64,000 nucleotides of DNA from Escherichia phage IrisVonRoten. The stretch lies in sequence record MZ501075. One strand, given 5' to 3'. The notes under the pieces were generated by a model that was given only the letters and a program-made list of their open reading frames with translations, searched no databases and had not been told where the DNA came from. The position numbers and the translations under genes were made by a program. Position 1 is the first letter of the stretch, and every line of letters begins with the position of its first letter. Below, one piece after another: positions 3,900 through 22,438 of this stretch.

Positions 3900-5774
3900 T
3901 TATTTAGCTCGAATATCCTGATGTTTCACCCTGCCCATAACCTCGTGCTGTTTGCCGGGGTTAAATGGACGAGCACCTGGATTTCCAAGATACCCACAAA
4001 CTCGACGAGTTACTTCAAGAGTTTCGGGGTCATGATTACCACAGATAGGGCACTTAAACCCATCTTCGGATGCTACTGTTTCACCTAAGAATCCACATTT
4101 ACCGCAAGAATCCACTGGAGTATTAATACCGAAGTAATGAACTTTACTAGCAGCATAATTAATAACCCATTCCAGTGCATCTGGGAATCGTTTCATATCT
4201 GGTAGTTCTACATAGGAAATACACCCACCAGAAGCAATAGGAGTAAAGTTAGATTCATAATCAAATTTCACGTTAGGAGCAACTTTACGTTCCACATCAA
4301 GGTGGTGAGAGTTGGTGTAGTATCCTTTGGACAGAATATCTTCATGCTCCGGGAAATATTCACGGTCTAGACGACAAAAGCGATCACATAGGGACTCTGA
4401 TGGTGTAGCATACAGGCTATAACCTAACTTAGTCTCTTCCTTCTTCTGATCGACCCTATCCCGCATGTACTGCAATACACGCTGAACAAACTTGATGCAG
4501 GTCTCAGACATTGTATCTACATCTTTGCCAAACATGAACTGTAGCATTTCATGGCAACCAATATACCCCAGAGATACAGAAGCACGGTTATAGAAATGAT
4601 CGAATACATATTCATCCGGCCCTAAGCGTAGTCCAAAGGCTCCTGACATATAGAGGATGGGTGCGGCTTTAGCTTGAATGTACTTTAAGCGATCAACTCT
4701 CCACTCCAATGCTTTTAACGCTGTATCCACACGTAGCTCGAGCAAATCAAAGAATAGATCAATATTCCCTTCAGCTTCGATAGCAATTCTAGGCAGGTTT
4801 ACAGAAACAACACCTAAGTTATTACGACCTGCAGTTTCACCATCTTCTGTAGCAGCCAGGAATGAACGGCAGCCCATAGAAACTTTATAGTCACCAGTAA
4901 CTTCCACAACCTTATCGTAGCTGATATAGTCGGGATACATACGTTCAGCAGTACATTTCATAGCTAACTTCTTGACGTCATAATTAACATCTCCTGGCTT
5001 CATATTTACGCCATCACGCAGAACAAACACCAGTTTCGGGAAGATAGCTGTACGTTTATTGATACCTAAACCATCCATGCGTACTTTCAGTATTGCTTTC
5101 TGTACTAGACGTGCTTCCCAAGAAGTTCCTAGACCAAAACCAAAGGTAATAAATGGACTCTGACCATTAGAGTTGAACATGGTATTGATTTCATATTCTA
5201 AACCCTGACAAGCGTCATAGACTTCTTTTTCAGTCATCTCCGTAGCCATTACGGATGCTTTGGCTTCATCCTTAGTCCAACGTTTTGCAAACGCATGATT
5301 TTTGTCATAGGATTTACGAACATAAGGGGCTAATACTTCATCAAGGCGATCTACAGAAGTACCACCATACTGATGGGAGCTAACCTGAGTGATAATCTGA
5401 GCAGTAATAGCCGCCGCAGTAGTGATAGAGTTTGGAGTGCTAATTTCAGCATTACCAACCTTCATACCATTCTTCAACATATCTTCCAAAGCTACCAGAC
5501 AACAGTTAGTCATACCTAATGCAGCATAATCAGCATCATGGAAATGAATATCTCCAATCATATGAGCATTTCGAATCTGAATTGGCATTTCTTCTAGAAT
5601 CAGATATTTACTTAACTCCCCTGCAAGCATATCCCTTTGTGTAGGGAAACGCTCAGAGGGTTTATTCGCATTATTAAAGAGAAGCTCTTCATCAGCAGAA
5701 CCCTCAATAATTTCTTTGCAGTTTCTAATCAAGGACTGCATTTCCTTGTATTTTAGTTCATCATTGCGATTCAT
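3900..5774 (-). CDS. nrdD: anaerobic ribonucleoside-triphosphate reductase (class III RNR)
   Basis: 624 aa; C-terminal Cys cluster CGKCGF...CPICG and glycyl-radical motif RRVCGYLG. Confidence 0.9.
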   Translation of the reverse strand: MNRNDELKYKEMQSLIRNCKEIIEGSADEELLFNNANKPSERFPTQRDMLAGELSKYLILEEMPIQIRNAHMIGDIHFHDADYAALGMTNCCLVALEDMLKNGMKVGNAEISTPNSITTAAAITAQIITQVSSHQYGGTSVDRLDEVLAPYVRKSYDKNHAFAKRWTKDEAKASVMATEMTEKEVYDACQGLEYEINTMFNSNGQSPFITFGFGLGTSWEARLVQKAILKVRMDGLGINKRTAIFPKLVFVLRDGVNMKPGDVNYDVKKLAMKCTAERMYPDYISYDKVVEVTGDYKVSMGCRSFLAATEDGETAGRNNLGVVSVNLPRIAIEAEGNIDLFFDLLELRVDTALKALEWRVDRLKYIQAKAAPILYMSGAFGLRLGPDEYVFDHFYNRASVSLGYIGCHEMLQFMFGKDVDTMSETCIKFVQRVLQYMRDRVDQKKEETKLGYSLYATPSESLCDRFCRLDREYFPEHEDILSKGYYTNSHHLDVERKVAPNVKFDYESNFTPIASGGCISYVELPDMKRFPDALEWVINYAASKVHYFGINTPVDSCGKCGFLGETVASEDGFKCPICGNHDPETLEVTRRVCGYLGNPGARPFNPGKQHEVMGRVKHQDIRAK

Positions 5775-6042: not shown

Positions 6043-6071
6043 TTGCTTTTTACTGTATATACTGGTATAAT
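6043..6071 (+). promoter_or_regulatory. T5-type early promoter upstream of phoH-like gene
   Basis: ttgctttttactgtatatactggtataat then ATTTGTAAGTTGATAAAC. Confidence 0.55.
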
Positions 6072-6144
6072 ATATTTGTAAGTTGATAAACAAGATCTTT
6101 TTGTTGATCCTCTGTTAGCGAAGTACACTATAGGAGTGTTATTT

Positions 6145-6897
6145 ATGGGAAAAGCACGTCAAAAAAGAGAGAACCGCAATGGTTCAAGAAAGCGTGGCAA
6201 CAAATATGAGAATAACGTAATTCAGGCTGATTTTTCTAATGATTACGCTAACCCAGTTGCTAAATCCCTAGTAGGTAAAAACCGAGAGCAAAAATCATAT
6301 ATCAATATGATCAAGAACAACACAGTGACTGTGGGTATCGGTGAGCCAGGTACTGGTAAAACCTTTATCCCGTCTGTTCTTGCAGCTCAGGAACTCGTAG
6401 ACATTCACTCAGATATTGAGCAAGTGATCCTCGTACGTCCTAACGAACCTCTAGGTAAGTCTCTTGGTATGCTTCCTGGTGACCTAGCAGAAAAGCTAGA
6501 GCCTTGGTTAGAGCCAATAGCTGATGGTATGAAATGGGCCATCGGTGATCATGCCTATAAGGGATATGTCGAACGTCAGAAAATTAAATTTTTGGCTATA
6601 GAACATGCTCGTGGCAGAACTTTCAACAACTCCTATGTAATTGTCGATGAAGCTCAGAATATTTCCGTTGAGGCAATGGTTTGTCTCCTAACTCGTGTAG
6701 GACAAGACTGCCGTTTAATTATCTGCGGGGATATAGCTCAAAAAGACATTAAAGGTGACTCAGGTCTAGCACTTCTTATGGAAGTTTATGAGAAATATGA
6801 AAATGCTCCATTCTCAATGATCGAATTAATTGATAACGTTCGTTCTGCTGAGTCTAAAGCATTCTACGATATTTTTAAAGACATGGGGAAGGTGTAA
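6145..6897 (+). CDS. phoH: PhoH-like ATPase
   Basis: Walker A GEPGTGKT, Walker B-like VIVDEAQN; start chosen at ATG after RBS taggag. Confidence 0.8.
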   Translation: MGKARQKRENRNGSRKRGNKYENNVIQADFSNDYANPVAKSLVGKNREQKSYINMIKNNTVTVGIGEPGTGKTFIPSVLAAQELVDIHSDIEQVILVRPNEPLGKSLGMLPGDLAEKLEPWLEPIADGMKWAIGDHAYKGYVERQKIKFLAIEHARGRTFNNSYVIVDEAQNISVEAMVCLLTRVGQDCRLIICGDIAQKDIKGDSGLALLMEVYEKYENAPFSMIELIDNVRSAESKAFYDIFKDMGKV

Positions 6898-7096: not shown

Positions 7097-7240
7097 GTGG
7101 CCAAAAACTAGACTGACAACACAGAAGGCCTGGGTATGAAAATACTCGGGCCTTTTCTATCAGAAAATTTTATTTGCCAAATGACTGAGAATAAAGTAGA
7201 ATATTCCTTAAATCCTGATAACTATAAAAAGGAAAACCAA

Positions 7241-9571
7241 ATGAGCCATCGCATTGAAAAAGTAATTAAACGTGACGGTACTGTAGAAGACTTTGCTCCT
7301 GAAAAACTCAATGGTTGGGCAGAGTATGGTTGCAAAACAGTTGATGTAAGTTGGTCAGCCATTACTATGGCTGCTCAAAAAACTCTGCCTAAAGGGGTTG
7401 TAGATTCCGACACTCTGATGGATGCTTTAATTAAGGCTGCTGAAAGTCTTATCAAAGATAATCCAGCATACGACGTGCCAGCAAAGGAATTACGTCTTGC
7501 GCAAATGCGTAAACGCCTTTATGATTCCTTCGAACCACCTTCTCTGCGCTTTTTCCACGATCATATGGTTAGTGTAGGTGCATGGGAAGACATGAGTGCA
7601 TGGATTACCAATGAGCAATTTGAAGCTCTGAATCAGGTTATCGACCATGATCGCGACCGTCTTTTCACTAGCGGAGGATTGAAACAATTCTTTGATAAGT
7701 ATTCTCGTCGTAATATCGCAACTGGCGAAATTTACGAAACCCCGCAATTTGCCTATATGGGTATGGCAATGGCGATGTTATCTCAACCTAATTGGACAAT
7801 TCTAGATGCAATCGACCTCTACAACGCAATGTCGCTACACAAAATCAACGTTCCTACGCCGCCATTGGTTGGCTTGCGCTCTAGTGACCGTGGATTTGCT
7901 AGTTGCTGCCTCGTGGATTCCACTGACACGTTGGATTCAATCGACACAGCCGAGCACATCGTCTTCAAAATGGTCGCAGCCAGAGCGGGAATCGGGTATC
8001 ATCTTGAAAGCCGATCAATTGCTGATCCGGTGCGAAATGGGGCATTCCCGCATTCCGGAAAACTGCCATATTATCGACACATTGACCGATCAGTAAAGGC
8101 TAATACTCAGCAAACTCGTGGCGGTTCTGCTACAGTGTCTTATCCTTACTTTGACCCTGAAATCATTCAGTTGATGCAGGTTAAGCAACAACGTGCTACA
8201 GATGAGAATAAAATCGATAAGATGGATTATTCTCTGAGCTTCAACAATCTTTTGTTAAAACGTTATCTGAAAAATGAAGATATTACGCTAATGTCATACT
8301 TCTATGCTCCAGAAGTTCATGAAGCGTTTTATAGTGATGACGAGGCTAAATTTGAAGAAATCTATGTGGCAGCGGAGAAACGTGTGGCATCTCTTACAAA
8401 GATCGACCACGAAGGAAAAACAGTTCCAGCAGCTCCTAAAGTCTCTGCAAAAGAAATCCTAGATACTTGGCTACGTATCCGAATGGAAACAGGACGTATG
8501 TATGCTCACCACATCGGGGAATCTAATCGTCATGGTAACTTCCTTGATCCGATCCGTATGACAAACCTTTGTGTTGAAATTACTCAGCCTACACGCCCAT
8601 TCCACCACATTACAGAGCTGTATAAAACAAAAGAACAACTTGATCAAATGAAGCCGGAGGATATTGGGGAAGTATCTCTGTGTAACTTAGGTGGTGTTGT
8701 ACTAGGACGCATGGAATCTCTGGCTGAGTGGGAAAAGACTTGCTATATTCTTCTGAAATTCGTTGATACCATCATTGAAATTCAGGACTATCCGTTCCCA
8801 ACTATGGAATATACAGCTAAGAAACGTCGTAACGTTGGTATTGGCCTTATGAACGCAGCAGGTGCAATGGCAGCAGAAGGTCTGGCTTATGAAGGCGTTG
8901 AAGCACGTAACTGGATCCATCGTGAAGCTGAAAAACTGTCCTACTTCCTGCATAAAGCTTCTGTACGTCTGGCTAAAGAACAAGGTGCATGTGAATGGTT
9001 TAATCGTACTAAACCATCTAAAGGAACTCTGGTAATCGATACGTATAAGAAAACTGTTGATGAGCTGGTATCAGTAGGCCTAGAAATGGATTGGGAATCT
9101 CTGCGTGCAGATATTCTGAAATACGGTATGCGTAACTCTGTTCTGACGGCACAGATGCCGGGAGAAAGTTCTTCCGTTCTGTTAGGGGTTACTAACTCTA
9201 TTGAACCACCTCGTAAGATTGTATCTATCAAGGGTAGTGCAGTGAATAAAGTAATTGCAATTGCTCCCGGTGCAACCGATTGGGAAACTTTAATGAGCTA
9301 TAAACTGGCTTATGATGTGGATCGTATTGAATGGATCAAATGGGTAGCAACTATGCAGAAATTCTTCAGCCAGTCTATCAGTACTAATATGTACTACGAC
9401 TACACCAAGTTTGAGAATGAAATCATTCCTGGCCCAGTAGTAGTTCGTGATTTCATGACTGCTGTTAAATATGGTTGGAAGACTTGGTACTACGCAAACT
9501 TCAACACTGCGAATGGTGGAGGAGCGGGTGAAGAAGCAGCGGGTTGTGCTTCTGGTGGTTGCCAGTTGTAA
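7241..9571 (+). CDS. nrdA: ribonucleoside-diphosphate reductase alpha subunit (class I)
   Basis: ATP-cone start MSHRIEKVIKRDG; catalytic motifs NLCxEI and PGESSS; start set at ATG after RBS aaggaaaa. Confidence 0.9.
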   Translation: MSHRIEKVIKRDGTVEDFAPEKLNGWAEYGCKTVDVSWSAITMAAQKTLPKGVVDSDTLMDALIKAAESLIKDNPAYDVPAKELRLAQMRKRLYDSFEPPSLRFFHDHMVSVGAWEDMSAWITNEQFEALNQVIDHDRDRLFTSGGLKQFFDKYSRRNIATGEIYETPQFAYMGMAMAMLSQPNWTILDAIDLYNAMSLHKINVPTPPLVGLRSSDRGFASCCLVDSTDTLDSIDTAEHIVFKMVAARAGIGYHLESRSIADPVRNGAFPHSGKLPYYRHIDRSVKANTQQTRGGSATVSYPYFDPEIIQLMQVKQQRATDENKIDKMDYSLSFNNLLLKRYLKNEDITLMSYFYAPEVHEAFYSDDEAKFEEIYVAAEKRVASLTKIDHEGKTVPAAPKVSAKEILDTWLRIRMETGRMYAHHIGESNRHGNFLDPIRMTNLCVEITQPTRPFHHITELYKTKEQLDQMKPEDIGEVSLCNLGGVVLGRMESLAEWEKTCYILLKFVDTIIEIQDYPFPTMEYTAKKRRNVGIGLMNAAGAMAAEGLAYEGVEARNWIHREAEKLSYFLHKASVRLAKEQGACEWFNRTKPSKGTLVIDTYKKTVDELVSVGLEMDWESLRADILKYGMRNSVLTAQMPGESSSVLLGVTNSIEPPRKIVSIKGSAVNKVIAIAPGATDWETLMSYKLAYDVDRIEWIKWVATMQKFFSQSISTNMYYDYTKFENEIIPGPVVVRDFMTAVKYGWKTWYYANFNTANGGGAGEEAAGCASGGCQL

Positions 9572-9580
9572 TAAAAGACA

Positions 9581-9606
9581 AGGAGATCTTCGGGTCTCCT
9601 TTTTCT
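9581..9606 (+). terminator. Rho-independent terminator after nrdA
   Basis: aggagatcttcgggtctcct followed by TTTTCTTT. Confidence 0.6.
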
Positions 9607-9618
9607 TTGAAATTTTAC

Positions 9619-9647
9619 TTGCTAATCGCTACCTGATTTGCTATAAT
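9619..9647 (+). promoter_or_regulatory. T5-type early promoter upstream of nrdB
   Basis: ttgctaatcgctacctgatttgctataat. Confidence 0.6.
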
Positions 9648-9678
9648 ATTCCTGAAATAGTGAGAAAGAGGAAAATCA

Positions 9679-10824
9679 ATGACTACTTTACTAAACCTGA
9701 ATTGGGATCATACTAACGCTGATCTTTTCCTGGGCGATTCTCTAGGTATCGCAGATTATGTACGTGTAGCACATCCAGAACTAGAACGTCTGGCACTTCT
9801 GCAACGCTCTCAATTTTGGACTGAGACAGAAATCAGTTTAGAAGCTGATAAGAAACAATGGCCTAACCTCCCACGTGAAATTCAGGAAATTACACTTCTG
9901 AATTTAGCATGGCAGACTCAAACTGATTCCTTTATCAGTCGAGCGCCTGAAGCAGCTATTATGCCACTTGTAAGTCGTCCAGAACTAGAGGGTATGCTCA
10001 AGCAGTGGAGCTACTTTGAAGACCTGCATAGTCGTGCTTATAGTAATATTATTCGTAATGTGCTGACTGATCCAGCAGAATTTATTGATTCTGTAACTAA
10101 AAACCAAGAAGCATTTGCACGTATTGCAGATTCTGTTGAACTGTTCGATGAACTGTACCAGTTAGGTCAGTATTTCATCGCAGTACGTGATCATCGTGGT
10201 GACAATACATATCCAGAAACTGAGTTCCCTGAAGTTAAGCGTGAAACTCAGGCTAAACTGTTAGATGCTTATTTTGCAATCTACGGTCTGGAAGCAATGC
10301 AGTTCTACGCATCCTTTGCGTGTACTTTTGCTCTAGCAGAGAACGATATTCTGCAGGGTATTGCTAAAAATCTGCAATTAATCGCTAAAGATGAGGCTCT
10401 GCACACCCAGATGTCTAAAGCAATCATCCAGATTATGTTCCAGCAGTTTGACAAAGATCTGGTAGATGAAGCAGTGGCTAAAGCACCAGCACAGCTCCTG
10501 AAAACTCTGAAAACTGAAATTGAATGGGGTCATTTCATCTTCAAAGGTCGTAGTCTAATCGGTTTGAATGCAGAACTTCTAGAAGAATACTTGTACTTTG
10601 TGGGGCGTAATGCATTTATGCACATTGGTGTAGAATGGCCTAGTCACTTACCAGTAATCACTAAAAACCCTATTCCGTGGATCATGAACTGGTTGGATAC
10701 TACTTCTCTACAGCCTGCTCCACAAGAAATCCAGATTGGCGCAGCCTACCGTGTAGGTCAGGTAACTGAGACCTCTACTGATACTCTGAAAGATCTGGGC
10801 AATGAATTTGGAGATTTCCTATGA
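9679..10824 (+). CDS. nrdB: ribonucleoside-diphosphate reductase beta subunit (class I)
   Basis: 381 aa; di-iron ligand motifs DEALH and FYASFA..FALAE typical of R2. Confidence 0.9.
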   Translation: MTTLLNLNWDHTNADLFLGDSLGIADYVRVAHPELERLALLQRSQFWTETEISLEADKKQWPNLPREIQEITLLNLAWQTQTDSFISRAPEAAIMPLVSRPELEGMLKQWSYFEDLHSRAYSNIIRNVLTDPAEFIDSVTKNQEAFARIADSVELFDELYQLGQYFIAVRDHRGDNTYPETEFPEVKRETQAKLLDAYFAIYGLEAMQFYASFACTFALAENDILQGIAKNLQLIAKDEALHTQMSKAIIQIMFQQFDKDLVDEAVAKAPAQLLKTLKTEIEWGHFIFKGRSLIGLNAELLEEYLYFVGRNAFMHIGVEWPSHLPVITKNPIPWIMNWLDTTSLQPAPQEIQIGAAYRVGQVTETSTDTLKDLGNEFGDFL

Positions 10825-11354
10825 TTACAGCAATGTATGCAGTTGGGCCGAATGGGGAGTTCGGCCTCCGAGGTAAGCTTCCCTGGGGTTCTTTTAAAGA
10901 AGAACTAGATGCTTTTTATTCACAATTAGATGTACTAAATCCTGATAATATTATTATTGGGGCGGGTACTTATTTAGCTCTTCCATATGCCGTTAGGGAA
11001 CGTATGATTGGAGCTTCTGACCTATTTATTCGTGCTGATCGTCCATTGCCAGACGATATTACACATGATATTTACACTCCCATATCAATGATAGGTGATA
11101 CACTACCTACTTTTCTAAAAGATCAGCAAACAGTAGTTCTAGGTGGAGCTAATCTTCTTCTAGAAATGTACCAACATGGACATATTGAAAGTGCTTTTGT
11201 ATCTACAATTTTTAGCGAGCAGAAGCTAGAGGCAGATACACACCTAGATAGTATGATACTGGATTATAACTATGAATCCACTCGATTAGTCTATGCAGTT
11301 GGCGCAAACAGTGATAACAGCCTGCGATTTGTACAGGAATTGGTTACTTATTAA
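10821..11354 (+). CDS. dihydrofolate reductase
   Basis: 177 aa; position between nrdB and thymidylate synthase; overlapping ATGA junctions; weak motif support. Confidence 0.65.
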   Translation: MITAMYAVGPNGEFGLRGKLPWGSFKEELDAFYSQLDVLNPDNIIIGAGTYLALPYAVRERMIGASDLFIRADRPLPDDITHDIYTPISMIGDTLPTFLKDQQTVVLGGANLLLEMYQHGHIESAFVSTIFSEQKLEADTHLDSMILDYNYESTRLVYAVGANSDNSLRFVQELVTY

Positions 11355-12193
11355 TGCAACAATACTTAAAAATTTTGACAGATGTAATTTTACTAGGTGA
11401 ACCCCGTAATGACCGTACAGGAACAGGCACAGTTTCAATTTTTGATTCCTATGCTAAGTTTGACCTACGTGAAGGGTTCCCGGCTGTAACTACTAAACGC
11501 CTGGCCTGGAAATCAGTAGTAGGAGAACTTTTATGGTTCTTGTCTGGCTCCACAAATCTTCATGATCTACGTGTATTCACATTTGGGCGTGACGAAGGAC
11601 AGTGGACCATCTGGACTCCAAATTATGAAGACCAAGCTATAAGTATGGGGTATGATAAGGGTAATCTAGGACCAGTATATGGTAAACAGTGGCGTAACTT
11701 TGGTGGGCGAGATCAGATTCTAGAACTTATTGAAGGACTCAAGAATAATCCTCATGGCCGCAGACATCTAGTTTCTGCGTGGAACGTAGCTGAACTTGAT
11801 AAAATGGCATTACCACCTTGTCACTACGGCTTCCAGTGTTATGTAAGTAACGATGGATACCTAGATCTTAAATGGACACAACGCTCTGTGGATTGTTTCC
11901 TCGGTTTACCTTTCAATATTGCTAGTTATGCTTTATTAACGCATATATTAGCAAAACTGACAGGATTAAAACCTCGTTATCTTATCTTTAGTGGCGGTGA
12001 TACTCATATCTATAATGACCACATGGAACAGGTAGAAGAACAGGTAAAACGCAAGCCACGCCCTCTACCAACTCTAGTAATGCCAGAGTTTGTAGATCTT
12101 TACGATTTATTAGAAAACAATACAGCAGCTTGGTCATTCCATTTAGAGGGGTACGATCCTCATCCAGCTCTTAAAGCTAAAATGTCCTCTTAA
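11354..12193 (+). CDS. thyA: thymidylate synthase
   Basis: ThyA-type motifs RxxxSAWN and PPCH..FQCYV (active-site Cys). Confidence 0.9.
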   Translation: MQQYLKILTDVILLGEPRNDRTGTGTVSIFDSYAKFDLREGFPAVTTKRLAWKSVVGELLWFLSGSTNLHDLRVFTFGRDEGQWTIWTPNYEDQAISMGYDKGNLGPVYGKQWRNFGGRDQILELIEGLKNNPHGRRHLVSAWNVAELDKMALPPCHYGFQCYVSNDGYLDLKWTQRSVDCFLGLPFNIASYALLTHILAKLTGLKPRYLIFSGGDTHIYNDHMEQVEEQVKRKPRPLPTLVMPEFVDLYDLLENNTAAWSFHLEGYDPHPALKAKMSS

Positions 12194-12286: not shown

Positions 12287-12568
12287 ATGATTTCAGCCAA
12301 AGAAGCCCAAGAACTTGCAGGATTAACAGAAGTACCTGCATTTCTAAAGTTTATAGAAGAAAAGATTGTAGAAGCTGCTAAGTCTGGAAATACAGAAGTA
12401 ATTATTCGAGATAATCCTTACGCTAGGTGGCTATATAATCCTAGAGAAATGCCAGGAGCCGCTAAATCGGTACTAAAAACCTTATCGGATAAGGGGTATC
12501 ATCTCTCACAATACTACCGAGAAGCCACCTTTGTAGACATGGGTCTTAAAATTAGTTGGGAGGTATAA
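12287..12568 (+). CDS. hypothetical protein (93 aa)
   Basis: ORF with RBS ggagg upstream. Confidence 0.45.
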   Translation: MISAKEAQELAGLTEVPAFLKFIEEKIVEAAKSGNTEVIIRDNPYARWLYNPREMPGAAKSVLKTLSDKGYHLSQYYREATFVDMGLKISWEV

Positions 12569-13044
12569 TGTCGGTTTTCCACATTTATACAGATGGTGCT
12601 TGTAAGTCTAACCCAGGTCCAGGCGCTTGGGGTTTTATTGTCTATGATGATAACGACGATCGTTTAGGTTCTAAATCTGGTTATAACCCTAAAACTACAA
12701 ATAATGAGATGGAACTCACAGCTATCGTAGAAGCCCTACGTTGGTCTGTTAAAAAAGATAATAGACCAATTGCTATCTATACTGACTCTGCTTATTGCAA
12801 AAATGGCATGGAAAGTTGGATGTTTTCTTGGCAAAGGAAAGGCTGGAAGAAAGCAGATGGTGAAGTTCCTCTTAATCTAGAACTTTGGCAGGAAGCATTT
12901 AAATTAACACAGCAGTATATCAACTTTCATAATACTAACCCTACTTTTATTAAGGTTAAAGGACATTCTGGTATTAGTGGTAATGAAGCTGTAGACGCCT
13001 TATGTAACACAGTTATTACTGAAGCTGAAATGGCTGAGATGTGA
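12568..13044 (+). CDS. rnhA: ribonuclease H
   Basis: YTDGACKSNPGPGAWG...NNEMEL...YTDS motifs of RNase HI; start at ATG after gggagg. Confidence 0.8.
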   Translation: MSVFHIYTDGACKSNPGPGAWGFIVYDDNDDRLGSKSGYNPKTTNNEMELTAIVEALRWSVKKDNRPIAIYTDSAYCKNGMESWMFSWQRKGWKKADGEVPLNLELWQEAFKLTQQYINFHNTNPTFIKVKGHSGISGNEAVDALCNTVITEAEMAEM

Positions 13045-13064
13045 TAAATAAGTTAAAAATCTTC

Positions 13065-13093
13065 TTGCTTAAAGCCCTCTAATTTAGTATAAT
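13065..13093 (+). promoter_or_regulatory. T5-type early promoter
   Basis: ttgcttaaagccctctaatttagtataat. Confidence 0.55.
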
Positions 13094-13120
13094 ATTCGTA
13101 TTGAAAGTGAGGAGGGCTTT

Positions 13121-13405
13121 ATGCGAATTTATAACTCAAATTCATTAGGATTTAAACCGTTGAGAAAACGTGCACAATCACCTCGTCAAATAAGAAAGGC
13201 TAATATTGGTGAGCCAGAAACACGTCTTCCACCTCCTCCAGAACAACGTTTAGTTTATCTGGATGAAGAATTAGCTGAACGCGAAGGAAAAGCTCAAGAA
13301 GAGATTGAGCGTAAGAAAATGTGTACTGCTCCAGCCTACTCCAAAGGGGCTTATCAGTATATCTATACAGCCGAAGAGGCTAAAGATGCGGGGCGTAAAA
13401 AATGA
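13121..13405 (+). CDS. hypothetical protein (94 aa)
   Basis: ORF after RBS gaggaggg. Confidence 0.45.
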   Translation: MRIYNSNSLGFKPLRKRAQSPRQIRKANIGEPETRLPPPPEQRLVYLDEELAEREGKAQEEIERKKMCTAPAYSKGAYQYIYTAEEAKDAGRKK

Positions 13406-13851
13406 AGATTACTGAATTTAAAGGTGCTTATAGTTTCTTATCTAACTTTTATTTATCACCAATTACTTTCGAATATCTAAATGAAATATGGCATGCTGAT
13501 ACTGTAGAACATGCTTTTCAGGCTATGAAATCCGACCAAAAAGATGATGTAGCTCATGTACTACGCTCCCTAAATGCAGGAGTTGCTAAACGTAGAGGAC
13601 GTAAATTAACTCTACGCTCTGACTGGGATAAGGTAAAAGATGATGTAATGCTAGAGCTTTTACGGTTAAAGTTTGCAATCCCTGATTTGAGAGATAAACT
13701 GTTAGCAACAGAAAATGCAACTTTGATTGAAGGAAATACCTGGGGAGATACATATTGGGGTGTTTGCCGAGGCATCGGGGATAATACTTTAGGAGTTCTT
13801 TTGATGCAGGTAAGGTCTGAAATTAAAAGAAGCTTACAGTTAATAAATTAA
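13402..13851 (+). CDS. NADAR / YbiA-like (DUF1768) domain protein
   Basis: FLSNFY, EHAFQAMK and GNTWGDTYWG motifs characteristic of the NADAR (YbiA) fold. Confidence 0.65.
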   Translation: MKITEFKGAYSFLSNFYLSPITFEYLNEIWHADTVEHAFQAMKSDQKDDVAHVLRSLNAGVAKRRGRKLTLRSDWDKVKDDVMLELLRLKFAIPDLRDKLLATENATLIEGNTWGDTYWGVCRGIGDNTLGVLLMQVRSEIKRSLQLIN

Positions 13852-13859
13852 AAATTCAT

Positions 13860-13889
13860 TTGCTAAACGCTTCAAATTCTCGTATAATA
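13860..13889 (+). promoter_or_regulatory. T5-type early promoter
   Basis: ttgctaaacgcttcaaattctcgtataat. Confidence 0.55.
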
Positions 13890-13926
13890 TACTTCATAAA
13901 TTGATAAACAAAAAGGAAAACAAATA

Positions 13927-14442
13927 ATGGCTAAGCAGAAAAACGCAAAAACTCAAGCAGCTACTACAGTTAAAACTTTCCCGCAGACTGAGGCTAACCG
14001 CAAAGCTCGTCTGGAACGCCATCTGCGCAAGCACCCTACTGATGCTCAAGCTGCACAGGCACTGAATCGTCCGGCTCCGATTCGTCAAAAGCCGAAGGCT
14101 AAGAATGCTACTCGTTCTGTAGCCCGCCTTGTGACCTATGTACAGGGTTATGGCCACAAATCTGTTCCAGTAACACTGAGTTTCAATGCTGGAGCTGAAT
14201 TGTTCTCTCGTAATGGCATGGCCATGAAAGATTATGAGAAAGCAGTTAACCAGAAGCGTAAACCAACGGCAGATGTACTGCGTGATACTCGCGGACAGTT
14301 CGGTTCTGTTAAACCAAATATCTTTGGTGTAGAATATAGCAAAGATAACGTTCGTGCTCTGTGTTATGGTGTGGGGATTAAATTCACAGGCGATTCTGCT
14401 CGTAAATCTGCTAAACCAGCTCGCAAGCGTAAAGCGAAGTAA
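13927..14442 (+). CDS. basic (Lys/Arg-rich) protein, possible nucleic-acid binding
   Basis: 171 aa; highly basic N- and C-termini. Confidence 0.45.
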   Translation: MAKQKNAKTQAATTVKTFPQTEANRKARLERHLRKHPTDAQAAQALNRPAPIRQKPKAKNATRSVARLVTYVQGYGHKSVPVTLSFNAGAELFSRNGMAMKDYEKAVNQKRKPTADVLRDTRGQFGSVKPNIFGVEYSKDNVRALCYGVGIKFTGDSARKSAKPARKRKAK

Positions 14443-14501
14443 TAGATAGGGGCGAAAGCCCCTACAGTCAACTAATTCTCTAACCAATCCAGGATATTTT
14501 T

Positions 14502-14717
14502 ATGTTCTCTAAGAAACCACGTTCCGTTACTGAAATCGTTGCTTCCTTTACTACTATTACTGATGAACTTCAAGCTCGTATTGAGGCTGATCAGAAAATT
14601 GCTGCTGATATTCAGAAACAGCAGGAAGAACTCGCTCTGAAGTTGGCTGAAACCAACAAGAGCGAAAAATCTGCCCAAACTATTATGGAAAATATCCTTA
14701 AACTGCTTGGCAAGTAA
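14502..14717 (+). CDS. hypothetical coiled-coil protein (71 aa)
   Basis: ORF track. Confidence 0.4.
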   Translation: MFSKKPRSVTEIVASFTTITDELQARIEADQKIAADIQKQQEELALKLAETNKSEKSAQTIMENILKLLGK

Positions 14718-14724
14718 TTTAAAT

Positions 14725-14750
14725 CAGGGGGCGAAAGCCCCTCTTATTTG
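14725..14750 (+). terminator. putative terminator hairpin
   Basis: gggggcgaaagcccctc followed by TTATTT. Confidence 0.45.
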
Positions 14751-14758
14751 GAGAAATT

Positions 14759-14995
14759 ATGCGTAATTTTGTAGCAAAGAATGATTTTAACCGTGCTAGC
14801 ACTCATAAGTCCGCTAGAGATTATACACGACTTTCTAGTCATGAGGTAATGGATACCTGTTATGAAGAGCTGGAAGGTAGTTGGAATGAATGGCCTGACT
14901 TCTCTATGGAAGAGAACTGGGATGTCAGTGAGGATATGCTTCCTGGTTTCAAAGACCCCAAGAAGTGGGAGTCTATTAAAGAGACAGCTCTTTAA
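14759..14995 (+). CDS. hypothetical acidic protein (78 aa)
   Basis: ORF track. Confidence 0.4.
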   Translation: MRNFVAKNDFNRASTHKSARDYTRLSSHEVMDTCYEELEGSWNEWPDFSMEENWDVSEDMLPGFKDPKKWESIKETAL

Positions 14996-15023
14996 TAGTT
15001 TTCTACACAATAAAGGATAAGTT

Positions 15024-15725
15024 ATGAAAGTAAAACCATTTGGTATGCTAGATATTGAATCTCTAGGAACTCCAGGAGATTGTGGTACTACTCATATCGC
15101 AATGCCTTCTTTCGCTTTTGTGGCTATGCACGGAATTGATAAAGACCCTGATCTAGTGTTTGTTACTTTGGATGTACAAGATCAGCTTAACTCTGGAGCT
15201 AAAGTTACGGCATCTACTCTAGCATTCTGGATGGATCAAGCTAAGAATAGCCCATCAGCTCTACATATTATGGAAGCTATGAAGGAATGCAATCCAAAGC
15301 TGATTGCTTTTCAAGATGGTAAACATCACTGTACTAATAAGCTAGGCTCTAACTATGCAGCTTATTCTATGGCTAAAAACATTATGGAGTTGGCTCTAGG
15401 TGAGAATGCTTTGTATTATGGCAATGGCCCAGAGTTTGATATGACTATCTACTCTGCAAACACTTTCCATGCTGGAACCAATGAAGAAATAGTTCCGTGG
15501 AAATTCTGGAACTTAGGCAATGTTCGATCTCTCCGCAATCTCTGGATGCAGGCTGGTTATAGTTACAAAGACCTAGAAGCAGAGGGAATTAGCTGGGCAA
15601 AAGCTAAGATGGAGAAGATGGACACTATTCGTTATGGGATCTATCCGGTTAAGCATGATCCAGCATTCGATGCCTTAGTTGAGAGCTATTGTGTTGCAGC
15701 TATGGTCGAAAAAATCAAAATTTGA
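15024..15725 (+). CDS. putative DEDDh-type 3'-5' exonuclease
   Basis: N-terminal MLDIESLG (Exo I DxE-like) and C-terminal HDPAFDA (Exo III H-x4-D-like); motif reading only. Confidence 0.4.
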   Translation: MKVKPFGMLDIESLGTPGDCGTTHIAMPSFAFVAMHGIDKDPDLVFVTLDVQDQLNSGAKVTASTLAFWMDQAKNSPSALHIMEAMKECNPKLIAFQDGKHHCTNKLGSNYAAYSMAKNIMELALGENALYYGNGPEFDMTIYSANTFHAGTNEEIVPWKFWNLGNVRSLRNLWMQAGYSYKDLEAEGISWAKAKMEKMDTIRYGIYPVKHDPAFDALVESYCVAAMVEKIKI

Positions 15726-15754
15726 TTTGCTTCCAGCTTCAAAATTCTGTATAA
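15726..15754 (+). promoter_or_regulatory. T5-type early promoter
   Basis: ttgcttccagcttcaaaattctgtataat. Confidence 0.55.
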
Positions 15755-15795
15755 TATACTCATAAATTTGAGAAAACAACAAAAGGAAAACAAAT

Positions 15796-15978
15796 ATGCC
15801 AGTATCTAAAAATGTTCGTAAAAATGGTAAGAAAGCTACTCGTAATCTGGGTATTCGTCGTATGGCTGAACGTCAATCAGGTGTCCAGAAAATCTTTGAT
15901 ATGCTAAATCGTGCTAATCCTAAAATTGATAACAGTAAAGATACTGTTCTGCGTACCTTACTGGCAATGGGTCTGTAA
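15796..15978 (+). CDS. hypothetical protein (60 aa)
   Basis: ORF after RBS aaaggaaaa. Confidence 0.4.
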   Translation: MPVSKNVRKNGKKATRNLGIRRMAERQSGVQKIFDMLNRANPKIDNSKDTVLRTLLAMGL

Positions 15979-16030
15979 TAGACCAACTTTAAACAAATTC
16001 AAATCTTAAACTTCATATAAGGAAGAAACA

Positions 16031-16669
16031 ATGACCACTCGTATTTCTAAAACTCGTGCTCTAGCAACTATCAAATCTCTGGAAGCTAAAATCCGTAAAG
16101 CTACTGAACAGCAGCTTCTGATCGCTGTTGGTGAAGGTAAGGATAAAAACCAGGTTGTAGTTGGCGCTGCAATCGAAGTAGCTGATCTGTCTACTCGTAT
16201 TAAGACTGATTTCCAGTCTCTGCTGGATATGATGTCCCAGCGTGATCGTATCAAAGCTGCTCTGATTAAGAGCAATGCGGAAACAATCGTTGAGATTGGC
16301 TCTCGTAAGATGACTGTTGCGGAAGCAATTGAAGCTAAGCGTTCTATGGAGCTTAAAGCTCAGCTGCTGGCTAACATGCGTAAGCAGTTCCATGCCGCTA
16401 CGGTTAAGTTTAATACGCAGAAAGCACAGTTTGATGCTAAATATGAGCGTTTGCAGGATAGCATGGCTACCCGCGATAAGAAAACTTCCGAAGATGAAGT
16501 TAAAATGCAGCTCAACCTGCTGGAACTCAAGAATACTCCATTCTTGATTGATCCGCTGGAACTGGAAAAGCTGATTAAGCAGCATGACGAGGAATATCAG
16601 GACTTTGCAACAAATGTTGACTTTGTTCTGTCCGAGTCTAACGCCTCTACCTTCATTGAAGTAGAGTAA
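16031..16669 (+). CDS. hypothetical coiled-coil protein (212 aa)
   Basis: ORF after RBS aaggaag; large antisense ORF 16061..16810 judged spurious. Confidence 0.5.
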   Translation: MTTRISKTRALATIKSLEAKIRKATEQQLLIAVGEGKDKNQVVVGAAIEVADLSTRIKTDFQSLLDMMSQRDRIKAALIKSNAETIVEIGSRKMTVAEAIEAKRSMELKAQLLANMRKQFHAATVKFNTQKAQFDAKYERLQDSMATRDKKTSEDEVKMQLNLLELKNTPFLIDPLELEKLIKQHDEEYQDFATNVDFVLSESNASTFIEVE

Positions 16670-18603: not shown

Positions 18604-18826
18604 ATATTCATAAATTAGAGAACAGCGAGCCGATTACGCTGAGTGCAGAATCCCAACCGGAGCGCATTGAATAGAGTCGGTGGGTTAGTTGGAAAACTAG
18701 TACACAGGGGGCGGCAATCCCGGTTAGTGGCTAGAACGTGTAAAATGGGGCGTCTGAAACCTCTCCCCTAAACTCTTCTTTAATTTACTGATAGTGGGGT
18801 GTGGAAATCACTTATGTAGTAACACT

Positions 18827-18899
18827 GCCGATCTAGTATAAAACGGTATTATCAAGCCGTAACTGGTGGAAGATGTAGGTTCGAATCCTACGGTCGGTA
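18827..18899 (+). tRNA. tRNA-like gene; canonical acceptor and T-arm, anticodon arm unresolved
   Basis: Acceptor gccgatc/ggtcggt; T-arm gtagg-ttcgaat-cctac. Confidence 0.45.
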
Positions 18900-19401
18900 A
18901 GAACTGGATAACTGGTGCTTTTAATGTAAAAGCTTCCGAGGTTAGTTGCGCACTGCCTAAACCACGCGGTAGTTGGTTCCAGACTAACCAACCAGTCTGC
19001 TGAATAGTTTTATTACGATTTAACTATGTCCAGGCTAAAGAAGAACTTTAGAAGGTATTCTAGGATAGTGAAGTTCTTTCTCCATATCGGAGTAGTTTTT
19101 CAAACTATCCACAAAGTGGGAAATGCTGGCATGAGAGATGCCACTAATGGTGCACAATAGCACAGGTAATTCGCGATAACTCCTGTTGAGTAGCAGCAAA
19201 AAGGTGGGGAGTCATGACCCTAACCTAACCGAGTCCTCAGTATACCGCAGGACATAACCACTAAGTCACCTTGACTTAAACTGGAAAATAATAGACGTTA
19301 CTGTATTTTGTCTTGAAATACTTAATGAGTGAGACTTATGACTCTCCCGGTATCGTCTGTATTTTTAAGAGTTTTTACGAGAGTTCTTAAAAATACTTAA
19401 A

Positions 19402-19473
19402 CGGGGTGTAGTCTAAGGGAGAGGCAGGAGTCTTCTAAATTCCTTTATGCAGGTTCGAATCCTGTCACCTCGG
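19402..19473 (+). tRNA. tRNA-Arg (anticodon TCT)
   Basis: Acceptor cggggtg/cacctcg, T-arm gcagg-ttcgaat-cctgt, anticodon loop cttctaa, encoded CCA. Confidence 0.65.
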
Positions 19474-19510
19474 CCAATTTTATTAACTGTAACTAAAACA
19501 AAGGAAATAT

Positions 19511-20458
19511 ATGTCTAATACTAAAAATATGAAAGAACTGACTTCTGAGCAAAAAGTAATTCGCACTATTAAACGTTGGAGTATTGGTGCTGTAGTTGGT
19601 TTAGCAGGTTTAATCCTAGCTTTTAATTCATATACTATTGTTTCTGATGGTACGGTTAAAACCCAAACATTTCTAGGTAAAGTAGATCCTAACCCAGTAT
19701 TACCTGGTTTCCATCTTGTAAACCCATTTGCATCTTTCGATACTTTTAGTACAAAAGATATTGCTGTAAAATTAGATAAACTTCAGGTTCCTAGCCAGGA
19801 TAAGTTTAAATCCACTGTTGACCTGACTGTTATGTTGCAGTTTGATGGTTCTAAGGCACCGATCAACCGTATTAATGCGGGTACTCAAGATCAGGCTCTA
19901 GATAAGTATGTAACTGAAAAATTACTGTCTACTATTCGTGAGTTTGGTAAGTCTGTACCTAAAGCACAAGATTTGTTTGATGCTAAAATTCAAGCACAAT
20001 TGCAAACTGCAATTCAACAGGAAGTTGAAGAGTATGCACGCCCCTATGGTTACACAGTTAAGCAAGTGTTCCTTCAGGATATTACATTGCCACCGGTAAT
20101 TATGGAACAGGTACAGAATACCAAAGTTCGCGAAGAACAAGTTAATGCTGCGAAAGCTGAATTAGCTCGCGTTGAACAAGAAGCACAGCAGAAGGTTAAA
20201 CAAGCAGAAGCAGATCGTGAAGCTCGTAACAACCAAGCTATTGCAAACGAACGTGATGCAGATGCTAAACTGTATGCAGCTAAGAAAGAAGCTGAAGCTA
20301 ACGCTGCTCTGCAACGTACCATTACTCCTGAGATGATTCGCTGGAAGCAACTAGAAGTTGAAATGATTCGTGCTCAGAAGTATCAAGGTGGTGTACCGCA
20401 GACTGTGGTTGGCACTGGTTATGATGGCCAGATGATTATGGATATGCGTAACAAGTAA
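19511..20458 (+). CDS. SPFH/band-7 (prohibitin/HflC-like) membrane protein
   Basis: N-terminal TM helix then SPFH-like core; C-terminal coiled-coil. Confidence 0.6.
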   Translation: MSNTKNMKELTSEQKVIRTIKRWSIGAVVGLAGLILAFNSYTIVSDGTVKTQTFLGKVDPNPVLPGFHLVNPFASFDTFSTKDIAVKLDKLQVPSQDKFKSTVDLTVMLQFDGSKAPINRINAGTQDQALDKYVTEKLLSTIREFGKSVPKAQDLFDAKIQAQLQTAIQQEVEEYARPYGYTVKQVFLQDITLPPVIMEQVQNTKVREEQVNAAKAELARVEQEAQQKVKQAEADREARNNQAIANERDADAKLYAAKKEAEANAALQRTITPEMIRWKQLEVEMIRAQKYQGGVPQTVVGTGYDGQMIMDMRNK

Positions 20459-20482
20459 TACCCACACGTAATATTCGAAGTA

Positions 20483-20518
20483 AGCCCTGCGTTCCCTGGA
20501 GAGCGCAGGGCTTTTCTG
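20483..20518 (+). terminator. Rho-independent terminator
   Basis: gccctgcg..cgcagggc hairpin then TTTTCTG. Confidence 0.6.
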
Positions 20519-20534
20519 TATTTAAGATAAGAGA

Positions 20535-20572
20535 AAAGCCCCTAAGTCTTTCGACTAGGGGCTTTTTATTAT
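20535..20572. terminator. bidirectional terminator hairpin
   Basis: agcccctag..ctaggggct flanked by T-tracts on both strands. Confidence 0.6.
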
Positions 20573-20579
20573 TGGTTCT

Positions 20580-20774
20580 TTAGAACCATATACTCTTGTT
20601 ACAGCAACCACCCATACGGGAGGCCAATCTTGACTGAAAATCTACTCTAGGGGGCAGGATAAGAGTAGGCTTAAAGGCAAAGGGATTGAACGCCGGTATT
20701 TGTGTAAACATTGCTGGAGAGCAACAACGTGCTACAGGCATTGGGCAGCACGAAACAGATTTTCTGCAACACAT
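20580..20774 (-). CDS. Cys-rich small protein (64 aa, 9 Cys)
   Basis: Strong RBS taaggagg upstream on minus strand. Confidence 0.45.
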   Translation of the reverse strand: MCCRKSVSCCPMPVARCCSPAMFTQIPAFNPFAFKPTLILPPRVDFQSRLASRMGGCCNKSIWF

Positions 20775-20783
20775 AATTCCTCC

Positions 20784-21200
20784 TTAGGAGTTATTACCAC
20801 CATTTTGAGCTTTTGCAACTTGGCTTTGGCAGAAGCTATTAAACTTACCCATAAGTGATACAAGCTGCTTCCCATCCTCTGTCTTTGCGAAGTCTTCGAA
20901 AAGGGCTAGTACTGCTTGTCCTTCCGTAGAAACCTGCGGTTGTTGGGTTTGCTGCTGAACTTGCTGCTGAGGCACCTGTTGCTGCATTTGTTGAGGCATT
21001 TGCGACTGCCCGCTCATTTGCTGCATCATTTGCATAGGACTCACACTTCCAGGGTTTTGCTGGAAGTGTTGCTGCATCTGTTGCGCTTCTGCTAAACGCT
21101 GTTGCAACTGTTGTAGGTAAGGATTATCCAGACCCGGAACGGGCTGCTGGGAGCCCATTGGTTGATTAAATCCGTTGTTTACAAAACCATATTTACTCAT
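20784..21200 (-). CDS. Gln-rich low-complexity protein
   Basis: 138 aa, long Q/M-rich repeats. Confidence 0.5.
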   Translation of the reverse strand: MSKYGFVNNGFNQPMGSQQPVPGLDNPYLQQLQQRLAEAQQMQQHFQQNPGSVSPMQMMQQMSGQSQMPQQMQQQVPQQQVQQQTQQPQVSTEGQAVLALFEDFAKTEDGKQLVSLMGKFNSFCQSQVAKAQNGGNNS

Positions 21201-21221
21201 AATGGGCTCCTCCCCTTAATT

Positions 21222-22409: not shown

Positions 22410-22438
22410 TTGCTTGAATGCTAAATTCTCTGTATAAT
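22410..22438 (+). promoter_or_regulatory. T5-type early promoter
   Basis: ttgcttgaatgctaaattctctgtataat. Confidence 0.55.

What the first reader, a model, noticed from the sequence alone, without database searches (positions are those of the whole stretch)
13402..13851. NADAR/YbiA-like protein in the early nucleotide-metabolism cluster
The motifs FLSNFY, EHAFQAMK and GNTWGDTYWG match the NADAR fold. NADAR enzymes have been linked to removal of ADP-ribose from guanine bases, so a phage copy could counter DNA ADP-ribosylating defence toxins (DarT-like) or process NAD-derived metabolites. That role is inference.
Basis: partly seen in the sequence, partly recalled or inferred. Interest (0 to 1): 0.6.

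Follow-up and report, generated by a model that had tools for sequence, protein, structure and literature searches.

The report
Known phage anti-DarT1 NADAR enzyme (AdfN)
This T5-like phage gene encodes a small enzyme that strips ADP-ribose off guanine in DNA to defeat the bacterial DarTG1 defence, and a 98.7% identical copy was already shown to do this in 2025, so the finding is correct but not new.

Summary
The ORF at 13402-13851 (+, 149 aa) is real and is a NADAR-domain protein. Pfam PF08719 scores 78.7 bits against a cut-off of 35.1. The AlphaFold model (pLDDT 97.9) superposes on E. coli YbiA (TM 0.82) and on Phytophthora NADAR bound to ADP-ribose (TM 0.76). All active-site residues are present and invariant in 44 homologs.

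The window is a T5-like phage (Tequintavirus). The protein is 147/149 identical to bas33_0070 of phage HildyBeyeler (Bas33), at the same locus. Johannesman et al. (Nat Commun 2025) tested the NADAR of Bas32/Bas33 as AdfN^Bas32. It neutralised the DarT1 toxin in E. coli and rescued RB69, T5 and Bas25 from DarTG1. It had no effect on thymidine-specific DarTG2.

New details from this work:
- The gene is an accessory 450-bp cassette, absent from T5 and present in about 94 of roughly 440-540 T5-like records.
- It is co-transcribed from a T5-type promoter and translationally coupled to the T5.090 homolog.
- It carries Glu, not Asp or His, at the specificity-linked catalytic position, which predicts possible extra activity on ADP-ribosyl-cytidine. 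That prediction is untested.

The parts
13402..13851 (+). CDS for a 149-aa NADAR-domain protein, the ortholog of AdfN^Bas32 (anti-DarT factor NADAR). Predicted active-site residues are S14, E36, K43, R67, W75, K79, E110, D116 and W119.
   Evidence: ORF. Pfam NADAR 78.7 bits. 147/149 identical to bas33_0070. Model pLDDT 97.9. Foldseek TM 0.82 to YbiA and 0.76 to 8bau. Residue conservation.
13121..13405 (+). Upstream 94-aa ORF, the homolog of T5.090, function unknown. Its TGA stop overlaps the NADAR ATG (ATGA at 13402-13405), so the two are probably translationally coupled. Its last ~12 codons differ from T5.
   Evidence: translations compared. No Pfam family.
13065..13093 (+). Sigma-70-type promoter TTGCTT-17 nt-TATAAT, the likely start of the two-gene unit (T5.090 homolog plus NADAR). 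The sequence is identical to the stretch annotated as a promoter upstream of T5.090 in T5.
   Evidence: Sequence read, identical T5 sequence, T5 annotation. The consensus scanner did not list it because the -35 hexamer matches only 3 of 6.
13369..13849 (+). Segment with no counterpart in phage T5: the 3' tail of the upstream ORF plus the whole NADAR gene. Homology to T5 is 94% up to about 13368 and resumes at 13850 at 97.8%.
   Evidence: Pairwise global alignment, three-way alignment, T5 gene table showing T5.090 - promoter P-H207 - T5.089 with nothing between.
13860..13888 (+). Promoter TTGCTA-17 nt-TATAAT, the homolog of T5 promoter P-H207. It starts the next unit (DUF7022 gene, 13927-14442) and marks the downstream boundary of the NADAR cassette.
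   Evidence: Promoter scan, identical sequence in T5, T5 annotation 'promoter P-H 207', DUF7022.

Best explanation
The gene encodes a stand-alone NADAR-family ADP-ribosylglycohydrolase, the ortholog of AdfN^Bas32. It is transcribed early, by the host polymerase, from a T5-type promoter together with the T5.090 homolog. When the phage infects a cell carrying the DarTG1 toxin-antitoxin defence, DarT1 ADP-ribosylates guanines in phage DNA and blocks replication. This enzyme hydrolyses the N-glycosidic bond between the guanine N2 and ADP-ribose, restores the DNA and lets replication proceed. It acts as an orphan antitoxin carried by the phage. Shown here: the ORF, family, fold, active-site residues, near-identity and synteny with the tested protein, and accessory-gene status. 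Shown by others on a 98.7% identical protein: DarT1 neutralisation, rescue of phages from DarTG1, and no effect on DarTG2. Inferred: that this allele (T9A and K104E relative to the Bas33 protein) behaves the same, that it matters in this phage's natural hosts, and the early timing.
For: 1. Family: Pfam NADAR at 78.7 bits against a 35.1 cut-off. The A2 profile hits YbiA at 4e-39 and PnNADAR at 1.5e-19.
2. Fold: pLDDT 97.9 and pTM 0.91. TM 0.82 to 2b3w and 0.76 to the 8bau ADP-ribose complex.
3. Active site: E36, K43, E110, D116 and W119 align to PnNADAR E43, K50, E125, D130 and W133 (residue roles from PMC11543638). They are 44/44 invariant in homologs of 47-60% identity.
4. Orthology: 147/149 identity to bas33_0070 in the same gene order, thy - hyp - rnh - hyp - NADAR - DUF7022. 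There is one match in the Bas33 record and one NADAR in the window.
5. Experiments on AdfN^Bas32: PMC11825919.
6. T5, which lacks the gene, is DarTG1-sensitive and is rescued by supplying AdfN^Bas32 in trans.
7. The two substituted positions, 9 and 104, are variable columns.
Against: 1. The paper's accession table was not available, so equating AdfN^Bas32 with bas33_0070 rests on it being the only NADAR detectable in Bas33.
2. The text I read reports only ectopic expression for AdfN^Bas32. I saw no knockout in Bas32/33 and no purified-enzyme assay described explicitly.
3. NADAR in-vivo specificity is not predictable from fold alone. E. coli YbiA and T4 gp30.3 hydrolyse G-ADPr in vitro yet failed to rescue DarT1 toxicity in one study (PMC11125620).
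4. Among solved structures the protein is closest to YbiA, whose described role is in riboflavin metabolism.
5. It is unknown whether this phage's hosts carry DarTG1.
Confidence: 0.88

Rival explanations
1. Metabolite-repair enzyme like E. coli YbiA or plant COG3236: an N-glycosidase that destroys reactive riboflavin-pathway intermediates (or another small N-ribosyl metabolite) during infection, in keeping with its position next to nucleotide-metabolism genes.
For: Its closest solved relative by sequence and fold is YbiA. It hits TIGR02464 'riboflavin biosynthesis intermediates N-glycosidase' at E=3.6e-18. Several homologs are named 'ribA/ribD-fused uncharacterized protein' by JGI. It carries the YbiA-type Glu at position 110 (definition).
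Against: TIGR02464 scores 66.3 bits, below its curated 73.7 cut-off. I saw no riboflavin genes among the neighbours examined. The 98.7% identical protein has demonstrated anti-DarT1 activity. YbiA itself hydrolyses G-ADPr in vitro, so resemblance to YbiA does not argue against a nucleic-acid substrate. The gene is dispensable: T5 and most relatives lack it.
Confidence: 0.04
2. Broader-spectrum de-ADP-ribosylase: its main natural targets are other base-ADP-ribosylating toxins or defences (cytidine- or guanosine-ADPr on DNA or RNA, from pierisin/ScARP-like, YarT-like or undiscovered systems), and DarT1 reversal is only one of its activities.
For: NADARs with Glu at the PnE125 position (the NADAR and YbiA families) remove both C-ADPr and G-ADPr from DNA and RNA, while the Asp (DarG1) and His (T4) types remove only G-ADPr (PMC12945103). 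The window protein has Glu110, invariant in its clade. NADARs also reverse G-ADPr on RNA (PMC11833690). Johannesman et al. raise the same possibility.
Against: No C-ADPr or RNA assay has been reported for this clade in the papers I read. No cytidine-ADP-ribosylating phage-defence system is described in them. The Glu-to-C-ADPr link is a correlation: the E167D mutant of SCO5665 lost all activity rather than switching specificity.
Confidence: 0.07
3. Functionally decayed or neutral passenger gene with no role in this particular phage.
For: It is accessory: absent from T5 and from about three quarters or more of T5-like records.
Against: The ORF is intact and every catalytic residue is retained. 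All 94 copies are at least 95% identical at the nucleotide level and full length. The gene is tightly embedded in an expressed unit through the ATGA overlap.
Confidence: 0.01

Closest known systems
AdfN^Bas32 (NADAR of Escherichia phages Bas32 and Bas33/HildyBeyeler; Johannesman et al., Nat Commun 2025, PMC11825919)
   Same: 147/149 identical protein and the same length. Same position between the T5.090 and T5.089 homologs downstream of thy and rnh. Same phage genus, Tequintavirus.
   Different: Two substitutions, A9 in place of T and E104 in place of K, both at variable positions. The host genome differs: the closest relative is Salmonella phage MET_P1_179_112, which encodes a 100% identical protein.
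E. coli YbiA (PDB 2b3w), YbiA family of the NADAR superfamily
   Same: A bare core fold with no large extension (TM 0.82, 37% identity). Glu at the last-strand catalytic position, and the E-x6-K and D-x-x-W-G motifs.
   Different: YbiA is a chromosomal housekeeping or SOS-operon gene with riboflavin-intermediate N-glycosidase activity, and it did not rescue DarT1 toxicity in vivo. The phage protein misses the TIGR02464 cut-off, and its near-identical ortholog does rescue.
DarG1 (DarT1-linked NADAR antitoxin, BC4488 family; G. lovleyi 8bat, E. coli C7 NADAR)
   Same: The same biochemical job, removal of DarT1-made guanine-ADPr, and the same superfamily.
   Different: DarG1 has an Asp at the catalytic position, a basic N-terminal beta-beta-alpha extension and an adjacent darT1 gene. 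The phage protein has Glu110, starts directly at the core, has no ART gene beside it and superposes poorly (TM 0.52, E=0.85).
AdfN^T4 (T4 gp30.3, the 'phage NADAR' family)
   Same: A phage-encoded orphan NADAR that counters DarTG1.
   Different: The T4 type has His at the catalytic position, needs the T-even context to work and does not remove C-ADPr. The T5-like type has Glu and works without other phage factors. The authors infer an independent acquisition.

Membership tests
NADAR superfamily (Pfam PF08719 / DUF1768) | Profile match above the curated gathering score over the full domain | tested here: met
   78.7 bits against 35.1; profile positions 9-163 of 163.
NADAR superfamily (Pfam PF08719 / DUF1768) | YbiA-like alpha-helical core fold flanked by small beta sheets | tested here: met
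   AF2 pLDDT 97.9. Foldseek: 2b3w TM 0.82 with E=8.7e-10, and 8bau TM 0.76 with E=1.5e-6.
NADAR superfamily (Pfam PF08719 / DUF1768) | Conserved Ser, Glu and Lys of the substrate channel, plus the last-strand acidic or His residue and the D..W pyrophosphate/ribose contacts (PnNADAR E43, K50, E125, D130, W133) | tested here: met
   S14, E36, K43, E110, D116 and W119 are present and 44/44 invariant in homologs.
NADAR superfamily (Pfam PF08719 / DUF1768) | Hydrolysis of guanine-N2-ADP-ribose | not testable with these tools
   Needs a biochemical assay. Activity is implied for the 98.7% identical AdfN^Bas32 by in-vivo DarT1 neutralisation.
AdfN^Bas32 orthologous group (T5-like phage anti-DarT1 NADAR) | Near-identical sequence to the tested protein | tested here: met
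   147/149 identity to bas33_0070 with no gaps. That is the single NADAR match in the Bas33 record.
AdfN^Bas32 orthologous group (T5-like phage anti-DarT1 NADAR) | Same genomic position in a Markadamsvirinae genome | tested here: met
   The order thy - hyp - rnh - hyp - NADAR - DUF7022 gene is seen in both the window and Bas33.
AdfN^Bas32 orthologous group (T5-like phage anti-DarT1 NADAR) | Neutralises DarT1 and restores plaquing on DarTG1 hosts | not testable with these tools
   Published for AdfN^Bas32 but not for this exact allele.
YbiA family sensu de Souza & Aravind (as cited in PMC11125620 and PMC11543638) | Glutamate, not Asp or His, at the catalytic position in the last beta strand | tested here: met
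   E110 aligns to YbiA 'LVE' and to PnNADAR E125. The definition is quoted. Johannesman et al. nevertheless place AdfN^Bas32 nearest two archaeal NADARs and outside the YbiA-like group in their tree, so family placement depends on the criterion used.
Riboflavin-intermediate N-glycosidase equivalog (NCBIfam TIGR02464) | Score at or above the curated cut-off | tested here: not met
   66.3 bits against a 73.7 cut-off.
DarG1 / BC4488 family (DarT1-linked antitoxin NADAR) | Asp at the catalytic position, an N-terminal basic extension, and a gene adjacent to darT1 | tested here: not met
   Glu110. The core starts at about residue 2-10, so there is no extension. TM is only 0.52 to 8bat. The neighbours are the T5.090 homolog and a DUF7022 gene, with no ART.
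T4-type phage NADAR (AdfN^T4 / gp30.3) | His at the catalytic position and clustering with T4-superfamily NADARs | tested here: not met
   Glu110. The authors state that AdfN^Bas32 does not cluster with AdfN^T4.
NADAR anti-phage defence proteins (NCBIfam NF053876 DS32_2; PADLOC PDC-M42C) | Profile score at family level | tested here: not met
   NF053876 scores 44.8 bits against a 240 cut-off. PDC-M42C scores 28 bits at E=5e-7. Both are only superfamily-level resemblance.

The most novel reading that the evidence does not exclude
The T5-like AdfN carries the Glu-type active site (E110). In other NADARs this type goes with removal of ADP-ribose from cytidine as well as guanosine, on both DNA and RNA. 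If that holds here, this 149-aa enzyme would be a broader counter-defence than T4 AdfN or DarG1, protecting against base-ADP-ribosylating systems beyond DarTG1, some still undiscovered. Its patchy spread as a clean 450-bp cassette among Tequintaviruses would then track exposure to such systems.
Probability: 0.2. Interest if true: 0.45.

Novelty: already known. Interest (0 to 1): 0.15.

Why it matters
As a discovery it adds little. The family, the fold, the activity and the anti-DarTG1 role of this exact protein lineage were published in 2023-2025, and one 2025 GenBank record already labels the gene 'antitoxin-like enzyme'.

It has practical value in three ways:
- It corrects widespread mis-annotation. 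Relatives call this gene 'swarming motility protein YbiA', 'GTP cyclohydrolase II' or 'hypothetical'.
- It predicts that this phage, unlike T5, should plate on DarTG1-bearing E. coli or Salmonella, which is relevant to choosing therapeutic T5-like phages.
- The clean presence/absence polymorphism gives a natural isogenic-like series for testing the cost and benefit of an anti-defence gene.

Tried and rejected
1. Riboflavin N-glycosidase assignment: TIGR02464 falls below its cut-off, so I rejected it as a membership claim.
2. Bacterial NADAR defence-protein families: NF053876 and PADLOC PDC-M42C gave only weak, sub-threshold resemblance.
3. A second NADAR in the window: an HMM built from 44 homologs, run against all six-frame ORFs of 40 aa or more, found only this ORF at E<=10.
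4. An alternative cassette in the same slot in other T5-like phages: a 60-row spread sample of 536 records showed only two states, spans of about 1400 bp and about 950 bp.
5. Retrieving the paper's Table S3 to confirm the AdfN^Bas32 accession: no supplementary files are held.
6. The three-way MAFFT alignment misplaced the T5 upstream segment. I redid it as a pairwise global alignment (after two failed script calls, 37 and 39, caused by a file-name assumption).
7. The consensus promoter scan did not report the upstream promoter. I found it by comparison with T5's annotated promoter.
8. Pfam gave no family for the co-transcribed 94-aa ORF or for the 93-aa ORF upstream of rnh.

Full report
**Observation.** The window has an ATG-to-TAA ORF at 13402-13851 on the + strand, encoding 149 aa. 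The Pfam NADAR model (PF08719) matches at E=8e-22 and 78.7 bits, against a gathering score of 35.1, over essentially the whole profile. PHROG 1017, a family of unknown function, matches at 1.2e-44. Among solved structures, E. coli YbiA (2b3w) matches at 3.7e-15 and the Phytophthora nicotianae NADAR (8bau) at 7e-7. With a profile built from 44 homologs these improve to 4e-39 and 1.5e-19.

**What genome this is.** The 2.5 kb around the gene matches 444 phage records, the best being Salmonella phage MET_P1_179_112 at 97%. These are Tequintavirus phages of the Demerecviridae, Markadamsvirinae, that is, T5 relatives. Pfam run directly on the window's ORFs gives the following upstream genes: NrdD (3903-5774, minus strand), PhoH (6136-6897), NrdA (7136-9571), NrdB (9679-10824), a 177-aa ORF annotated as dihydrofolate reductase in T5 and Bas33, thymidylate synthase (11354-12193) and RNase H (12556-13044). 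Downstream lie a DUF7022 gene and an Rv2179c-like exoribonuclease-domain gene.

**Anatomy of the unit.**
- The NADAR ATG overlaps the TGA stop of a 94-aa upstream ORF (13121-13405, the homolog of T5.090) in the sequence ATGA. This suggests translational coupling.
- Upstream of that ORF lies TTGCTT-17 nt-TATAAT at 13065-13093, followed by a strong GAGGAGG ribosome-binding site.
- That stretch is identical in T5, where it is annotated as a promoter.
- Directly after the NADAR stop comes TTGCTA-17 nt-TATAAT at 13860-13888. It is identical to T5 promoter P-H207.
- The likely transcription unit is therefore promoter, T5.090 homolog, NADAR, with no terminator detected before the next promoter.
- That these promoters belong to T5's early class is my own background knowledge. 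I did not test it here.

**Structure and active site.**
- An AlphaFold2 model built with the 44-sequence alignment is very confident: mean pLDDT 97.9, pTM 0.91.
- Foldseek against the PDB finds YbiA (TM 0.82, 37% identity) and the PnNADAR-ADP-ribose complex (TM 0.76). The DarT1-linked G. lovleyi NADAR is only a weak match (TM 0.52, E=0.85).
- The protein is thus a bare YbiA-type core, without the N-terminal basic extension that Schuller et al. describe for DarG1-type NADARs.
- Window residues E36, K43, R67, W75, K79, E110, D116 and W119 correspond to PnNADAR E43, K50, R79, W89, R93, E125, D130 and W133, the residues that contact ADP-ribose.
- S14, E36, K43, E110, D116 and W119 are invariant in all 44 homologs, which are only 47-60% identical overall.
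- Position 110 is Glu. The literature uses this position to separate subfamilies: Glu in the YbiA and general NADAR families, Asp in DarG1/BC4488, His in T4-type phage NADARs.

**The decisive comparison.**
- A tblastn search of phage genomes shows the protein is 98.7% identical to a single locus in Escherichia phage HildyBeyeler, MZ501074.
- The locus tags there read bas33_xxxx, so this is BASEL phage Bas33. The gene is bas33_0070, annotated 'hypothetical protein', in the same gene order as the window.
- Direct comparison gives 147/149 identities and no gaps. The differences are A9 in place of T and E104 in place of K, both at variable alignment columns.
- Johannesman et al. (Nat Commun 2025, PMC11825919) state that Bas32 and Bas33, 'Markadamsvirinae closely related to T5', encode identical NADAR proteins, which they name AdfN^Bas32.
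- They report that this protein neutralises DarT1 toxicity in E. coli without any phage. Ectopic expression restores replication of RB69, T5 and Bas25 on DarTG1 hosts. It does not help T5 against the thymidine-specific DarTG2.
- One GenBank record (Salmonella phage WP85, PV844355) already annotates the gene as 'antitoxin-like enzyme'. Others say 'swarming motility protein YbiA', 'GTP cyclohydrolase II', 'N-glycosidase', 'DUF1768' or 'hypothetical'.

**Caveats on that link.**
- The paper's accession table is not held. I therefore equate AdfN^Bas32 with bas33_0070 because it is the only NADAR match in the Bas33 record, and because a family HMM finds only one NADAR in the window's six reading frames.
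- The text I read describes ectopic-expression assays for AdfN^Bas32. I saw no knockout in the native phage.
- Cihlova et al. show that in-vitro activity does not guarantee in-vivo rescue: YbiA and T4 gp30.3 failed against DarT1 in their assay. Function cannot be carried over from fold alone, so it is the 98.7% identity that supports the inference here.

**Accessory status (new detail, modest interest).**
- T5 itself has nothing between T5.090 and promoter P-H207.
- Pairwise alignment shows 94% identity up to about window 13368, then divergence over the last ~12 codons of the upstream ORF plus the whole NADAR gene, then 97.8% identity from 13850 on.
- This fits the paper's use of T5 as a DarTG1-sensitive phage.
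- The gene occurs in 94 phage records, all full length and at least 95% identical in nucleotide sequence. By comparison, 444 records match the surrounding 2.5 kb by megablast and 536 match the 1.4 kb locus by blastn.
- In a spread sample of 60 of those 536 records, the slot is either about 1400 bp (with the gene) or about 950 bp (without it), and no other cassette appears.
- All the ~82%-identical records in the sample, which include phage Eps7, lack the gene.
- Among closer relatives, presence does not follow flank similarity. T5 lacks the gene although the downstream DUF7022 segment is 97.8% identical, and SelmaRatti lacks it with flanks at 96.9%. slur09 carries it at 93.9% identity over the locus. 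This suggests gain or loss by recombination.
- More distant homologs (33-60% identity) occur in many unrelated phages of Streptomyces, Vibrio, Bacillus, Stenotrophomonas and others.

**Rivals.**
- A YbiA-like metabolite-repair role is the obvious alternative, because YbiA is the nearest solved relative. However, the riboflavin N-glycosidase equivalog TIGR02464 is missed (66.3 bits against 73.7), the neighbours examined include no riboflavin genes, and YbiA itself hydrolyses G-ADPr.
- A broader-substrate reading is not excluded. Mikolcevic et al. 2026 find that Glu-type NADARs also remove cytidine-ADPr from DNA and RNA, while Asp-type (DarG1) and His-type (T4) enzymes do not. NADARs also reverse G-ADPr on RNA. 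The window protein is Glu-type, so dual G/C activity is a reasonable, untested prediction. This is the most novel reading my evidence leaves open.

**Verdict.** The gene is an ortholog of a published, experimentally characterised phage counter-defence enzyme (AdfN^Bas32), so the finding is already known and interest is low. The residual value lies in correcting the annotation, in the clean cassette polymorphism among T5-like phages, and in the testable Glu-type specificity prediction.

Noticed in passing
window 13369-13849, compared with L003 (T5) 6051-6106 and hits H126-H173: The NADAR gene is a clean two-state presence/absence cassette among T5-like phages, with locus spans of about 1400 bp or about 950 bp. 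Presence does not track flank similarity: T5 and SelmaRatti lack it at 97-98% flank identity, while slur09 has it at 94%. The last ~12 codons of the upstream ORF travel with the cassette.
   Followed up: partly
window 2404-3225 (-), 1738-2241 (-), 906-1732 (-): A Sir2-family protein (PF02146, 86 bits) lies next to a HAD_SAK_2 'Swiss Army Knife RNA repair' HAD-domain protein and two tandem DUF7415 proteins, downstream of nrdD. These are the equivalents of T5.102-T5.107. This is another NAD-linked enzyme family in the same phage, with no role assigned here.
   Followed up: no
window 18826-32353 (+): A cluster of 25 tRNA genes, typical of T5-like phages. The first call, 'tRNA-Ser' with anticodon ACT at position 37 (18826-18900), looks atypical and may be a mis-call or a tRNA-like element.
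   Followed up: no
window 9571-9679, compared with T5 49536-50060: T5 has an HNH homing endonuclease (hegH, T5.095) between nrdA and nrdB. The window has only a 107-bp gap there, so this phage lacks that endonuclease.
   Followed up: no
records H1-H15 and H76-H115 (relatives), corresponding to window 12287-16669: The deposited annotations of this early region are inconsistent and partly implausible. The NADAR is called 'swarming motility protein' or 'GTP cyclohydrolase II'. Small neighbouring ORFs are called 'baseplate wedge subunit', 'tail tape measure protein', 'tail fiber protein' or 'virion structural protein'. The 233-aa ORF at 15024-15725 is called 'exonuclease' or 'putative metallopeptidase', but Pfam gives an Rv2179c-like 3'-5' exoribonuclease domain at 34 bits.
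   Followed up: partly
hits H92 (OR847649, 'Listeria phage LM 4-11-1', 2093 bp) and H108 (Klebsiella phage KPP2018); organism counts: Near-identical T5-like sequence (97-98%) is deposited under Listeria, Campylobacter and Klebsiella phage names. For the short Listeria record, mislabelling or contamination seems more likely than a real host range.
   Followed up: no
L002 6438-6447 (Bas33 bas33_0076): Bas33 is annotated with an intein-containing hypothetical protein about 3 kb downstream of the NADAR. I did not check whether the window has the same intein.
   Followed up: no
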